Shown: piece after piece, positions 38,518 to 40,574 of the stretch
Layout: each line of letters opens with the position of its first letter
How positions within the stretch are numbered: position 1 is the first letter of the stretch
From: Bacteriovoracaceae bacterium
Lineage (GTDB): Bacteria > Bdellovibrionota > Bacteriovoracia > Bacteriovoracales > Bacteriovoracaceae
Length of the DNA stretch: 64,000 nt
Assembly (NCBI GenBank): GCA_048270185.1
Contig: JBLWTJ010000001.1
Span: 1,024,001 to 1,088,000 of the forward strand
Reading direction: 5' to 3'
The notes under the pieces: generated by a model
What the model saw: the letters and a program-made list of their open reading frames with translations, nothing else
What the model was told of the DNA's origin: nothing
Database searches by the model: none
Made by a program: the position numbers and the translations under genes

Positions 38518-39447
38518 TCAATCTGACCACTTAGAAATATAATGTAGATTATTAACAGAACAGATGAATTGCATAACTTGAATGTATAACGATTTCAAGA
38601 TTTCAAGATTTTCATCATCATTACCATCCTTTATATTTATCGAATTGAGGATATTTAATAGTTTTTTTAATTTTCTATAGTGGAGCTTGTTATTTAACTC
38701 TTTATGAACTCGTTGGATAAAGTACTTTTTTCTTTTTGTAATAACCGCAATTACTTTTAAGCGATCTAAAATTAGATCTTCGACTTCTGAAGGATCATTT
38801 AGTTTTACGCGTCCTTTTTTAAAAAGAGCCTTCAATTCTTTTTCATTTCGTCTTTTCACAACTTTTAACTGTTGATTTGTTAAATATTTAGTTGAACCTG
38901 GATGATGAAGAAAGAATCTTAAAGCTGGATAGTAAATGTCTGAACTTAAAATCCAAAGAAAATCAAAAGCATGAGTTGCATAACGATCTAAAAGACGAGC
39001 ATTTTCAAATGGATTAGTTAAAATAAAAGCAGGAACTCCTCTATTATTAAATTGATTTAAGGCTAACAATTGATATAAGTCATTTGTATTTGCCTTAAAT
39101 TCAATTTCCATAACAGAATGGTTTAAAAGAGTAAATTGATGACGATTTCTCATCCGATTATTTGGTTCATAAATATTATTAACGAAATAATTTTTTCTAT
39201 TAGTATTAATTGGTGCTGGTAATTGTAGTTTCGGGTGCAAACATCTTTTAGAAACCTTGTACTGAATTATCATTTCATGTAAGTATGGCAAGTTTAACCG
39301 AATTCTGGCATCAACTCCAAAGTCATCGCCGACAGTCCCTTCGGCCCTCCTTGTGGGCTGATATATATCTGAATAGAATTCTAGAACAAATTCTTTTCTA
39401 ATTAAGTAGTTAACATATGAGCTTAATGAGTTTTCATTTATTGGCAT
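38518..39447 (-). CDS. AT-rich orphan, putative PD-(D/E)xK-like nuclease
   Basis: 309-aa ORF with GAGG SD; N-terminal PT..E..G.D..(12 aa)..QYK arrangement. Confidence 0.45.
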   Translation of the reverse strand: MPINENSLSSYVNYLIRKEFVLEFYSDIYQPTRRAEGTVGDDFGVDARIRLNLPYLHEMIIQYKVSKRCLHPKLQLPAPINTNRKNYFVNNIYEPNNRMRNRHQFTLLNHSVMEIEFKANTNDLYQLLALNQFNNRGVPAFILTNPFENARLLDRYATHAFDFLWILSSDIYYPALRFFLHHPGSTKYLTNQQLKVVKRRNEKELKALFKKGRVKLNDPSEVEDLILDRLKVIAVITKRKKYFIQRVHKELNNKLHYRKLKKLLNILNSINIKDGNDDENLEILKSLYIQVMQFICSVNNLHYISKWSD

Positions 39448-39480
39448 CCCTAGCCTCTCTAAATAGATATACTTAATCTA

Positions 39481-39508
39481 CCATCGCCATTCCCATCCTA
39501 AAACTTAA
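39481..39508 (-). promoter_or_regulatory. Sigma-28-like promoter
   Basis: TTAAGTTT-N12-GGCGATGG, 33 nt upstream of 39447. Confidence 0.45.
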
Positions 39509-39662
39509 CCTTCTCACACAATTCCCCTTCAGAAAAACTAACCACATATACACTTTCCCAAACCACCCCATCAACAAAATTAACACATTACAGCTTCAAC
39601 CTAAACTGCATCTAAAGATAAAAAATTCCACATATTTTAAAAAGTTTGATACGAATTCGTAA

Positions 39663-39691
39663 TTGCGAACTTCAATACGGCCATGTAAAAT
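39663..39691 (+). promoter_or_regulatory. Sigma-70-like promoter of mutM
   Basis: TTGCGA-N17-TAAAAT. Confidence 0.6.
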
Positions 39692-39746
39692 GACACCCAA
39701 TTGCAGGCGGAGATGGTCTCCGCCCATGAATCACAGGAAGTGCGCT

Positions 39747-40574
39747 ATCCCTGAGTTACCCGAAGTCGAAACCATCAAATCACAACTCTCCCACGTTCTT
39801 CCAATGGAAGTCGAGGAAGTCGTCTTTTCAAGCGTCAGTGATTCCATTGTAAAAGACAAGGACTTCAATCCAAAAGGCATGACTCTCCAAAGAATTGAGC
39901 GCCAAGGAAAAGTTTTGCGCTTCTTCTTTGAAGATTGTGATGGCAATGAATGGCGAGCGATTTCTGGATTGGGAATGTCGGGATCGTGGCGAATTGCCAC
40001 GGAAGAAATTACAGAAAAGCACACTCACGTAAAACTCATTGGAACAAATGCAAAAGGCCCACTTCATCTTGGCTATATTGACCCGAGACGCTTTGGTGTC
40101 TTTCACCTCTACTCTCCACCAAATGAAGCGACATGGCTTACACGTCTTGGCCCTGATGTATCAAAAGCCGAGTTCACACTCGAGTATCTTTTGATGCTTA
40201 AAAAAGAACGCCCTAATAAAGTTTTAAAACCATTCTTGTTAGAGCAAAACTTCTTTGCAGGTGTTGGTAATTATATGGCCAGCGAGATTTGTGCGCGTGC
40301 AGGAGTTCGCCCCACTCGCAGGATGAAAACTCTCACAAAACTTGAACTTGAAAAGCTTTACATGGCCGTAAAGATTGTTCTTGATGACTCCATAAGCACA
40401 GGAGGCACGACATTTTCAGGTGGCTACCAAGACGCTTTTGGTGAAAAAGGTGAAGGTGTGAAAAATCTTGTGGTCTTCTATCAAAAGATCTGTGGACTTT
40501 GTAAGAAGACTGAAGTGAAGAAGATTACTCTTGCTCAGCGCGGGACTTACTACTGTCCTAGTTGTCAAAAGTGA
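39747..40574 (+). CDS. mutM: Formamidopyrimidine-DNA glycosylase (Fpg/MutM), apparent ATC start
   Basis: PELPEVET, RQGK, LGMSG, DPRRFG, AGVGNY..E (H2TH), CGLC..RGTYYCPSCQ zinc finger; codon before Pro is ATC. Confidence 0.93.
   Translation: MPELPEVETIKSQLSHVLPMEVEEVVFSSVSDSIVKDKDFNPKGMTLQRIERQGKVLRFFFEDCDGNEWRAISGLGMSGSWRIATEEITEKHTHVKLIGTNAKGPLHLGYIDPRRFGVFHLYSPPNEATWLTRLGPDVSKAEFTLEYLLMLKKERPNKVLKPFLLEQNFFAGVGNYMASEICARAGVRPTRRMKTLTKLELEKLYMAVKIVLDDSISTGGTTFSGGYQDAFGEKGEGVKNLVVFYQKICGLCKKTEVKKITLAQRGTYYCPSCQK

What the first reader, a model, noticed from the sequence alone, without database searches (positions are those of the whole stretch)
39706..39770. mutM appears to start at a non-canonical ATC codon
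Seen: acAGGAAGtgcgct-ATC-CCT-GAG-TTA-CCC-GAA-GTC, so ATC (39747) sits where the Met of MPELPEV should be, 6 nt after an SD-like AGGAAG (also found before grxB). The in-frame ATG at 39726 would give MNHRKCAI-PELPEV, and its GGAG lies inside a perfect 8-bp hairpin (GGCGGAGA-tgg-TCTCCGCC, 39706-39724). Known: Fpg needs a free N-terminal Pro as nucleophile, so extensions inactivate it; AUU/AUC starts are IF3-sensitive and weak. Inference: AUC initiation tuning 8-oxoG repair, a two-start active/inactive switch, a start-loss mutator allele, or a sequencing error.
Basis: partly seen in the sequence, partly recalled or inferred. Interest (0 to 1): 0.75.

Follow-up and report, generated by a model that had tools for sequence, protein, structure and literature searches.

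The report
fpg gene starting at ATC
The DNA-repair gene fpg (mutM) of this Halobacteriovorax-like genome most likely really starts at the rare codon ATC, as its relatives often start at ATT or ATC, which probably keeps the enzyme scarce.

Summary
ATC (39747-39749) stands directly before the catalytic Pro-Glu (PELPEV) of an intact 275-codon Fpg/MutM gene. A Shine-Dalgarno-like AGGAAGTG lies 4 nt upstream. A separate metagenome contig (depth 16) carries the same codon.

ATC is most likely the real start. In 237 genomes of the same family, Fpg-type starts read ATG 118, GTG 17, TTG 13, ATT 20, ATC 6-7 and CTG 1 (decayed). No intact gene follows ATA, AAG, ACG, AGG or 18 other codons tested. Of 27 ATT/ATC genes, 22 have no other possible start. 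Their dN/dS (0.03-0.06) equals that of ATG genes. The genome's own infC starts at ATT with the same spacing. NCBI already calls an ATC start for a related Halobacteriovorax Fpg.

The upstream ATG and the hairpin are not a switch. They are the leftover 5' part of a multi-copy structured element. A 101-nt deletion removed the rest, including a stem that pairs the ribosome-binding site in the closest species.

This is a new member of a known kind (AUU/AUC starts, as in infC and pcnB). The recurrence of such starts in fpg across many phyla was not found in print.

The parts
39747..40574 (+). fpg/mutM coding sequence read from ATC: 275 codons plus TGA stop at 40572-40574
   Evidence: Domains PF01149, PF06831 and the zinc finger are present. 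It aligns from Pro1 to the end of E. coli Fpg 1k82_A (E 6.9e-31). The Lys, LGMSGS, DPRRFG, GVGN..ASE, QRGTYYC and four-Cys positions are kept.
39747..39749 (+). ATC, the proposed initiation codon (read as fMet, then removed to expose Pro)
39735..39742 (+). Shine-Dalgarno-like AGGAAGTG, 4 nt (CGCT) before ATC
   Evidence: G002 has AGGACGTG + 4 nt + ATG. infC of this genome has GGAGGTG + 4 nt + ATT. The site is unpaired in the centroid fold.
39734..39736 (+). CAG at the junction of a 101-nt deletion relative to the closest species (G002)
   Evidence: In G002 two CAG triplets lie 101 nt apart and flank the missing stretch.
39726..39728 (+). in-frame ATG, part of the element's conserved CCCATGCA and not a likely start
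   Evidence: present in all 5 aligned copies. No Shine-Dalgarno-like sequence upstream of it, and it lies 1 nt after the hairpin.
39706..39724 (+). 8-bp GC-rich hairpin with a 3-nt loop, the first stem of the structured element
   Evidence: Identical in G002 and G004 copies.
39700..39736 (+). retained 5' part of a multi-copy structured element (about 110-150 nt when complete)
   Evidence: match at G000:C1:1063700-1063736, 95% to the G002 copy..
39663..39691 (+). promoter-like TTGCGA-17-TAAAAT; it would start the mRNA near 39698, just before the hairpin
   Evidence: 9 of 12 matches; 2 sites found against 1.3 expected, so weak on its own. The same hexamers stand in the G002 and G004 copies.
39480..39620 (+). 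C/A-rich, G-poor block (5 G in 141 nt) conserved upstream of fpg in four related species; function unknown

Best explanation
The gene is a functional fpg (mutM) whose translation starts at AUC 39747. The 30S subunit binds AGGAAGUG, which places AUC in the P site 4 nt downstream. Initiator tRNA reads AUC as fMet. Methionine aminopeptidase then exposes Pro, the catalytic nucleophile. By analogy with E. coli reporters, AUC is a weak, IF3-checked start, so the enzyme is made at a low level. This is not a one-off lesion. In this bacterial family the fpg start codon moves freely among ATG, GTG, TTG, ATT and ATC but not to other codons. Selection therefore keeps 'some initiation' while tolerating, or favouring, low output. 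The upstream ATG and hairpin are remnants of a structured leader element. In this genome a 101-nt deletion removed the part that pairs the ribosome-binding site in the closest species. Shown here: the codon, its conservation pattern, purifying selection, ribosome-binding-site geometry, and the deletion. Inferred: actual initiation at AUC, low expression, IF3 sensitivity, and any link between the leader loss and the weak codon.
For: (1) All 25 relatives with a match have a start-capable codon just before Pro: ATG 14, GTG 6, TTG 1, ATT 3, ATC 1.
(2) Pattern scans of 237 genomes of the family give, before PELPEV[EQ]T: ATG 118; GTG 17, TTG 13, CTG 1 and nine control codons 0. Before PELPEV they give ATT 27, ATC 10, ATA 4 and nine control codons 4 in all, and AAG/ACG/AGG 0.
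(3) I fetched 40 of the 45 matches and already held 4 (G227 AGT was not fetched). Of the 41 ATT/ATC/ATA matches, 27 are intact Fpg ORFs (ATT 20, ATC 7; two are cut by contig ends), and none of the 4 ATA matches is. In 22 of the 27 an in-frame stop lies 2-25 codons upstream with no ATG/GTG/TTG between.
(4) The 27 genes lie in 10 of 69 genera. On a tree of 96 Fpg proteins, at least 17 switches between ATT/ATC and canonical codons are needed.
(5) dN/dS is 0.028-0.05 for three ATT/ATC pairs with unsaturated dS, 0.027-0.08 for canonical pairs, and 0.035 for this gene against G002.
(6) infC of this genome starts at ATT, with a stop 2 codons upstream and the same 4-nt spacing after GGTG.
(7) NCBI protein P0003 (Halobacteriovorax sp. 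GB3, 271 aa) equals the ATC-started ORF of L027 with M at the first place.
(8) The catalytic residues are kept.
(9) In E. coli, AUC initiates at 1-2% of AUG and gives an N-terminal Met (Hecht et al., bioRxiv 10.1101/063800, passages read).
(10) The X1 contig carries ATC.
Against: There is no expression, ribosome-profiling or protein data for this organism, so initiation at AUC is inferred. Unlike 22 of its 27 ATT/ATC relatives, this gene does have in-frame upstream ATG codons (7 and 19 codons upstream) with no stop between, so an extended product cannot be excluded from sequence. The branch leading to this gene carries about 14 amino-acid changes against 5 on the G002 branch, with similar synonymous counts (45 and 40). 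That is a possible mild relaxation, but the counts are small and crudely made. ATA is never seen, although in E. coli it initiates about as well as AUU/AUC. The rule in this lineage therefore differs from the E. coli data in a way I cannot explain. The X1 run may be the sample the window was assembled from, so it is not certainly independent. Whether fpg is special, or only the gene in which such starts can be seen because its N-terminus is invariant, is not settled: my control family was uninformative.
Confidence: 0.8

Rival explanations
1. Translation starts at the upstream in-frame ATG (39726, or 39690). This gives an N-terminally extended, catalytically dead protein, alone or alternating with the AUC start as a hairpin-controlled active/inactive switch.
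For: The frame is open from TTG 39663, and ATG 39726 and 39690 are in frame. Gene callers that allow only ATG/GTG/TTG would pick one of them: P0104 is such an extended call on the ATT gene of L034.
Against: ATG 39726 has no Shine-Dalgarno-like sequence at working distance. It sits 1 nt after a stable hairpin and 9 nt upstream of the only such sequence, which is spaced for ATC. The ATG is part of the element's conserved CCCATGCA, present in all 5 aligned copies, including one that precedes no ORF. It became in frame and adjacent only through the 101-nt deletion; in G002 the same frame stops after 22 codons. ATG 39690 overlaps the -10-like hexamer and may lie outside the mRNA. Of the 27 ATT/ATC relatives, 22 have no upstream start at all. 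The extension peptide is not conserved anywhere.
Confidence: 0.07
2. The ATC is a start-loss lesion. The gene is silent or nearly so in this strain (a mutator or decaying allele) and looks intact only because the change is recent.
For: AUC is about 50-100 times weaker than AUG in E. coli reporters. This branch carries somewhat more amino-acid changes than its sister (about 14 against 5). A second Fpg-like start elsewhere in the genome is already broken (C1:894009), so loss of such genes does happen here.
Against: The 275-codon ORF is intact in a 37% G+C genome, and dN/dS is 0.035 against G002. The same codon stands in a slightly different strain contig. ATT/ATC starts persist through speciation in 10 genera under purifying selection as strong as for ATG genes. 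Only start-capable codons are ever seen at this position. It is the only Fpg/Nei gene left in the genome, and a MutY-like partner is present.
Confidence: 0.1
3. Assembly or sequencing error: the true codon is ATG.
For: The window comes from a draft assembly of 30 contigs. I could not see raw reads, only Logan contigs.
Against: A Logan contig of depth 16 has ATC. At least 26 other species in the family and 76 of 80 loci fetched from a wider scan show the same ATT/ATC arrangement.
Confidence: 0.03

Closest known systems
infC (IF3) with its AUU start
   Same: A non-AUG/GUG/UUG start of the AUH class sits behind a good Shine-Dalgarno sequence. This genome's own infC uses ATT with the same 4-nt spacing after GGTG and an in-frame stop 2 codons upstream. 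IF3 bars non-canonical starts (PMC9723500, abstract as listed), so fpg output should depend on IF3 activity.
   Different: In infC the weak codon closes a feedback loop on IF3 itself (recalled knowledge). For fpg no feedback is known or shown. The fpg codon is not fixed but flips among five codons between close species.
pcnB (poly(A) polymerase I) of E. coli with its AUU start
   Same: A low-abundance enzyme carries a weak non-canonical start. Hecht et al. [quoted passage not shown] That is the same kind of lability as seen here.
   Different: A different protein. That excess Fpg is harmful is my inference, not shown here.
Fpg/MutM of E. coli, Lactococcus and Geobacillus (PDB 1k82, 1tdz, 1l1t)
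   Same: Full-length alignment from Pro1 with the same three domains, catalytic Pro-Glu, Lys, Arg and zinc-finger cysteines. Fpg attacks C1' with its N-terminal proline (PMC5422863, abstract as listed).
   Different: A distant member: 177 bits against the NCBIfam equivalog cut-off of 212. The start codon is ATC.
NCBI-annotated Fpg of Halobacteriovorax sp. GB3 (P0003)
   Same: The 271-aa record equals an ATC-started ORF (L027) with M at the first place, so the public annotation already accepts an ATC start for this gene in a relative.
   Different: Another genus-level group in the tree (g30), 75% identical, with a different upstream region and no in-frame upstream ATG.
Hairpin elements at fpg starts that carry a spare gene start
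   Same: A multi-copy hairpin-bearing element lies directly at the fpg start. Copies are followed by orphan fpg-like starts (G004, G022). Three copies (of 17 distinct copy sites printed) are flanked by 32-64-nt duplications of the neighbouring sequence. One of these duplications repeats a gene's 3' end, so the interrupted gene stays whole.
   Different: Kinship with the CPR elements was not tested, and those notes are unchecked AI notes. Here the element is truncated and sits in the leader, not inside the codons.

Membership tests
Fpg/MutM (formamidopyrimidine-DNA glycosylase, Fpg/Nei superfamily) | N-terminal Pro-Glu (PELPEVE) directly after the initiator residue | tested here: met
   PELPEVET follows the ATC codon and aligns with residue 1 of the mature E. 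coli enzyme.
Fpg/MutM (formamidopyrimidine-DNA glycosylase, Fpg/Nei superfamily) | Three-domain build: Fapy_DNA_glyco N-domain, H2TH, C-terminal zinc finger | tested here: met
   PF01149 (62.3 bits), PF06831 (53.9 bits), PF06827 (21.9 bits against cut-off 21.3).
Fpg/MutM (formamidopyrimidine-DNA glycosylase, Fpg/Nei superfamily) | Catalytic Lys, DNA-intercalating and phosphate-binding motifs, Arg before the last Cys pair, four Zn cysteines | tested here: met
   alignment to 1k82_A. The residue roles are recalled knowledge.
Fpg/MutM (formamidopyrimidine-DNA glycosylase, Fpg/Nei superfamily) | Score over NCBIfam's equivalog cut-off for Fpg (as opposed to Nei) | tested here: not met
   best models are Fpg (177.3 bits, cut-off 212; TIGR00577 163.9, cut-off 203.3); Nei scores 84.8 (cut-off 252). 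Family membership is safe; the exact substrate range is not.
Fpg/MutM (formamidopyrimidine-DNA glycosylase, Fpg/Nei superfamily) | 8-oxoG/Fapy glycosylase and AP-lyase activity | not testable with these tools
   Needs an enzyme assay.
Bacterial genes with a non-canonical AUU/AUC initiation codon (infC/pcnB type) | A codon other than ATG/GTG/TTG at the place where homologues start | tested here: met
Bacterial genes with a non-canonical AUU/AUC initiation codon (infC/pcnB type) | Shine-Dalgarno sequence at working distance from that codon | tested here: met
   The anti-Shine-Dalgarno sequence is assumed canonical, because the 16S 3' end is not in the assembly.
Bacterial genes with a non-canonical AUU/AUC initiation codon (infC/pcnB type) | No canonical start that could give a working protein | tested here: met
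   In this genome the upstream ATGs would block the catalytic Pro and the next downstream ATG would delete it. In 22 of 27 relatives there is no upstream candidate at all.
Bacterial genes with a non-canonical AUU/AUC initiation codon (infC/pcnB type) | The gene stays under purifying selection while carrying the codon | tested here: met
   dN/dS 0.028-0.05 for ATT/ATC pairs.
Bacterial genes with a non-canonical AUU/AUC initiation codon (infC/pcnB type) | Experimentally shown N-terminus and IF3 dependence | not testable with these tools
   No RNA run is listed; no proteomics is at hand.
Mobile hairpin elements that duplicate gene ends (earlier scan notes) | Multi-copy, fixed architecture, flanking duplication of the interrupted gene end | tested here: inconclusive
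   Multi-copy: 10 of 13 genomes of the genus, up to 7 matches each. Three copies, of 17 distinct copy sites printed, have 32-64-nt flanking repeats. Sequence kinship to the CPR elements was not tested.

The most novel reading that the evidence does not exclude
fpg is a widespread, so far undescribed member of the small class of genes kept on a weak, IF3-checked AUU/AUC start. Its start codon acts as an evolutionary dial for 8-oxoG repair capacity: at least 17 flips in one family, ATC in all 24 Trueperaceae loci fetched, and ATA never seen. Part of this turnover is driven by a mobile structured element that lands at the 5' end of fpg and brings its own promoter, ribosome-binding site and start. 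ATG>ATT is itself a G>T change, which (from recalled knowledge) is the signature mutation of unrepaired 8-oxoG. A weak repair state could therefore write itself into the start codon of the repair gene.
Probability: 0.2. Interest if true: 0.7.

Novelty: new member of a known kind. Interest (0 to 1): 0.42.

Why it matters
For annotation: gene callers that allow only ATG/GTG/TTG mis-call these genes. The public collection holds a 252-aa truncated call (P0021) and a 287-aa extended call (P0104) for ATT-started fpg genes. Either form lacks a free catalytic proline. Because the first residue of Fpg is catalytic, it is one of the few proteins whose true start can be read from sequence alone. It can therefore serve as a natural probe of which codons a lineage accepts as starts: here ATT and ATC, but not ATA. 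For biology: if the weak start sets Fpg level, start-codon flips would be a simple way for lineages to shift oxidative-damage repair and mutation rate. The case would also add a DNA-repair gene to the very short list of natural AUU/AUC-started genes.

Tried and rejected
1. Expression data: no RNA holder is listed for the stretch, and only contigs could be laid.
2. Rfam: no family matches the leader or hairpin at 39300-39900, in the G002 leader, or in four other copies. Only chance-level matches with E 0.1-0.57 appeared.
3. Genome-wide test for ATT/ATC starts in this genome. I counted codons that lie upstream of the first canonical start in 2764 long ORFs and are preceded by a Shine-Dalgarno-like word. 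ATT 52 of 870 (6.0%) and ATC 23 of 267 (8.6%) do not stand out from other codons (GTA 8.8%, overall 5.3%). There is thus no sign of general use of such starts, but the test is crude.
4. Control family with a catalytic N-terminal Cys (CGIVG motif, 150 genomes). It was uninformative because the dominant matches are Asn/Ser-CGIVG, so the motif is not start-adjacent here. The 9 ATT/ATC matches among the rows shown (14 further rows were not listed) were not followed up.
5. Compensation by a stronger Shine-Dalgarno sequence. ATT/ATC genes have a mean duplex energy of -5.3 kcal/mol against -3.8 for ATG genes (Mann-Whitney p 0.017). Kin are not independent and the anti-Shine-Dalgarno sequence is assumed, so this is a weak hint only.
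6. The 16S 3' end was not found in the assembly.
7. Overall fold of 39680-39800 is no more stable than shuffles (z 0.46). Only the hairpin is robust.
8. The mini-ORF reading of the element (MTPNCRRRWSPPM...). The four differences from G002 in that stretch are all non-synonymous (read by eye from the alignment), so it does not look coding.
9. Literature: no paper links fpg/mutM with a non-canonical start. The searches were formamidopyrimidine + start codon + ATT (2 papers, the one listed unrelated); mutM + start codon + AUU (1 unrelated); a six-term search on ATT/ATC start codons in prokaryotic genomes (6 papers, none on fpg by title and abstract). Subscription journals are not covered.
10. Earlier scan notes near this place: none.

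Full report
WHAT IS THERE

AGGAAG is at 39735-39740 and extends to AGGAAGTG. Then come four bases (CGCT), ATC at 39747-39749, and CCT GAG TTA CCC GAA GTC. An in-frame ATG lies at 39726, and further in-frame codons at 39690 (ATG) and 39663 (TTG). A perfect 8-bp hairpin with a 3-nt loop lies at 39706-39724.

From ATC the frame is open for 275 codons. The product has the three Fpg domains. Its best NCBIfam models are Fpg, below their equivalog cut-offs (177 bits against 212). It aligns from Pro1 to the last residue of E. coli Fpg, with the catalytic Pro-Glu, Lys, Arg and four zinc cysteines in place.

It is the only Fapy_DNA_glyco N-domain match in the genome, and a MutY-like gene is present. The best named relative is a Halobacteriovorax Fpg (93% identity). 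The genome has 36.6% G+C.

IS THE CODON REAL

A 13,319-nt contig of public run X1 (depth 16) covers 39400-40024. It has six differences, all at 39822-39894 and none in the start region. The run may be the source sample or a near strain, so this is support rather than proof. Only contigs could be laid, not raw reads.

A contig of run X3 is about 97% identical from 39757 on. Upstream of that point it has a different flank that ends in ATG CCA GAA C. Very close relatives therefore differ in the start codon and in everything upstream of about codon 4.

WHAT RELATIVES SHOW

Of 41 genomes searched (G000 and 40 related ones), 25 have the gene. The codon before Pro is ATG in 14, GTG in 6, TTG in 1, ATT in 3 and ATC in 1, the last being this genome.

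I then scanned all 237 genomes held for the family with degenerate patterns for the invariant N-terminus.
- Before PELPEV[EQ]T: ATG 118 matches in 115 genomes; GTG 17, TTG 13, CTG 1, and nine other codons of the form B-N-G none.
- Before PELPEV: ATT 27, ATC 10, ATA 4, and nine other A-N-H codons four in all.
- AAG, ACG and AGG: none in 237 genomes.

I fetched 40 of the 45 matches and already held four; the G227 AGT match was not fetched. Of the 41 ATT/ATC/ATA matches, 27 are intact Fpg genes (ATT 20, ATC 7; two are cut by contig ends). The other 14, including all four ATA matches, are something else. Five belong to one other conserved motif with a short frame, five lie inside other proteins, and four are short frames that may be decayed copies. 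The single CTG copy is full of stops.

With the longer pattern, ATT/ATC make up 26 of 175 Fpg-type starts (15%). Three of the GTG/TTG rows belong to a second, distant Fpg paralogue.

In 22 of the 27 ATT/ATC genes an in-frame stop lies 2-25 codons upstream with no ATG, GTG or TTG between. There ATT or ATC is the only start that keeps the catalytic end.

The pattern follows function, not mutation. The transitions ATG>ATA and ATG>ACG never appear, while the transversions to ATT and ATC do.

TURNOVER AND SELECTION

The 27 genes lie in 10 of 69 genera. I built a quick maximum-likelihood tree of 96 family Fpg proteins. It holds all ATT/ATC genes with at least 200 residues visible, 29 GTG/TTG genes, and 42 of the 118 ATG genes.

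The five codons need at least 42 changes on this tree. ATT/ATC against the canonical codons needs at least 17. That is only slightly fewer than with shuffled labels (mean 22.4, minimum 18 of 200). Nearly identical proteins differ in their start: L033 ATT and L219 ATG, L016 ATT and L199 TTG.

Here ATC (L001) is sister to G002 (ATG) plus four GTG species, and the next branch (L027) is again ATC. ATC may therefore be old in this lineage.

dN/dS (Nei-Gojobori) is 0.038, 0.028 and 0.05 for three ATT/ATC pairs. It is 0.027-0.08 for canonical pairs and 0.035 for this gene against G002. The branch to this gene has about 14 amino-acid changes against 5 on the G002 branch, with 45 and 40 synonymous changes. 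This is a possible mild relaxation, but the counts are small.

RIBOSOME-BINDING SITE AND infC

The spacing AGGAAGTG + 4 nt + ATC is the same as AGGACGTG + 4 nt + ATG in G002. It is also the same as GGAGGTG + 4 nt + ATT in this genome's own infC. There a TGA two codons upstream leaves ATT as the only start. So the organism demonstrably uses an AUH start, in the classical IF3 gene.

The Shine-Dalgarno sequence and AUC are unpaired in the centroid fold. In E. coli, AUA, AUC, AUU and CUG initiate at 1-2% of AUG, and an AUC-started protein carries N-terminal Met (Hecht et al., bioRxiv 10.1101/063800, passages read). IF3 bars non-canonical starts (PMC9723500, abstract as listed). Fpg uses its N-terminal proline as nucleophile (PMC5422863, abstract as listed). 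That Met is removed before Pro is recalled textbook knowledge.

THE HAIRPIN AND THE UPSTREAM ATG

The closest species, G002, has the same promoter-like hexamers and the identical hairpin. It then has 101 more bases between two CAG triplets before the ribosome-binding site. The extra part folds into further stems. The last of these, CCTGAG/CTCAGG, pairs the AGGA of the ribosome-binding site (five copies, 38 pairs, two with compensatory changes).

This stretch is not a private fpg leader. It matches in 10 of 13 genomes of the genus, with up to 7 matches in one genome, and no Rfam family fits it. The copies found include:
- a copy before fpg in G107, another genus;
- a 97% identical copy in G004, followed only by a decayed fpg-like start, 19 kb from the real gene;
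- a copy in G022, followed by MPELPDLQSWHS-stop;
- a second copy in this genome at C1:1341040, inserted at the 3' end of a gene and flanked by a 33-nt perfect duplication of that gene's end.

Two further copies in other genomes have 32-nt and 64-nt flanking repeats.

ATG 39726 is the conserved CCCATGCA of this element. It is present in all five aligned copies, including the one that precedes no ORF. It is in frame with fpg only because of the deletion; in G002 that frame stops after 22 codons. It also lies upstream of the only ribosome-binding site. The 'two-start switch' is therefore not supported.

Whether loss of the stem that pairs the ribosome-binding site and the weak codon offset each other is an open idea. 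Earlier notes of this scan describe hairpin elements at fpg starts of CPR bacteria that carry a spare gene start. The behaviour looks alike. Kinship was not tested, and those notes are not evidence.

HOW WIDE, HOW NEW

Of the 80 loci fetched, 76 hold intact Fpg frames, and 46 of those have no upstream canonical codon before a stop. They come from at least 10 phyla: 30 Deinococcota (24 Trueperaceae, all ATC), 9 Bdellovibrionota, and many Pseudomonadota.

NCBI already calls an ATC start for a related Fpg: P0003 equals the L027 frame with M at the first place. Other pipelines truncated or extended such genes (P0021, P0104). I found no paper on this.

A crude scan of this genome gives no sign that ATT/ATC starts are common in other genes. 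A control family was uninformative. So I cannot say whether fpg is special or merely the gene in which such starts are visible.

VERDICT

The gene most likely starts at ATC (0.8). It is a new member of a known kind. The recurrent ATT/ATC starts of fpg and the mobile-looking leader element are the parts worth a further look.

Noticed in passing
window 39700-39736; G000:C1:1341040-1341130 (L248); L002 1350-1497; L247; L242; L017; L249-L265: A multi-copy structured element of about 110-150 nt with no Rfam match. Some copies are flanked by 32-64-nt duplications of the neighbouring sequence. One of these is in this genome, where the 3' end of a gene is duplicated so that the gene stays whole. Some copies are followed by orphan fpg-like starts.
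   Followed up: partly
G000:C1:894009 (outside the window): A second Fpg-like start (TTG, LPELPELETI...) whose frame ends after 29 codons. A transposase-like (rve-type motif, judged by eye) frame lies a few hundred bases downstream. This is probably a paralogue broken by an insertion sequence.
   Followed up: partly
window 39480-39620: A C/A-rich block with only 5 G in 141 nt, about 75% conserved upstream of fpg in four related species although the gene on the other side differs. It could be an unstructured leader or a Rho-loading site; its function is unknown.
   Followed up: no
L066-L145 (Trueperaceae and other Deinococcota loci): All 24 Trueperaceae fpg genes fetched start at ATC. Just upstream is a conserved stretch that wobbles at every third base in another frame. 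It is evidently the 3' end of an upstream gene that overlaps the fpg start, which suggests translational coupling.
   Followed up: no
G126:C1:68685-71136 (L044, L200): An intact ATT-started fpg and, 1.3 kb away, a decayed CTG-started copy full of stops.
   Followed up: partly
L185 1454-1467 (G000:C1, about 139976-139989): infC of this genome starts at ATT behind GGAGGTG, with an in-frame TGA two codons upstream.
   Followed up: yes
window 39822-39894: Six differences from the contigs of runs X1 and X3, clustered in 73 nt of fpg while the rest is identical to X1. At least two change an amino acid. This points to a strain-level recombination tract or a mixed-strain assembly.
   Followed up: no
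family-wide pattern scans: ATA never precedes an intact Fpg (0 of 4 ATA matches), although ATG>ATA is a transition and AUA initiates about as well as AUU/AUC in E. coli reporters. This is unexplained.
   Followed up: partly
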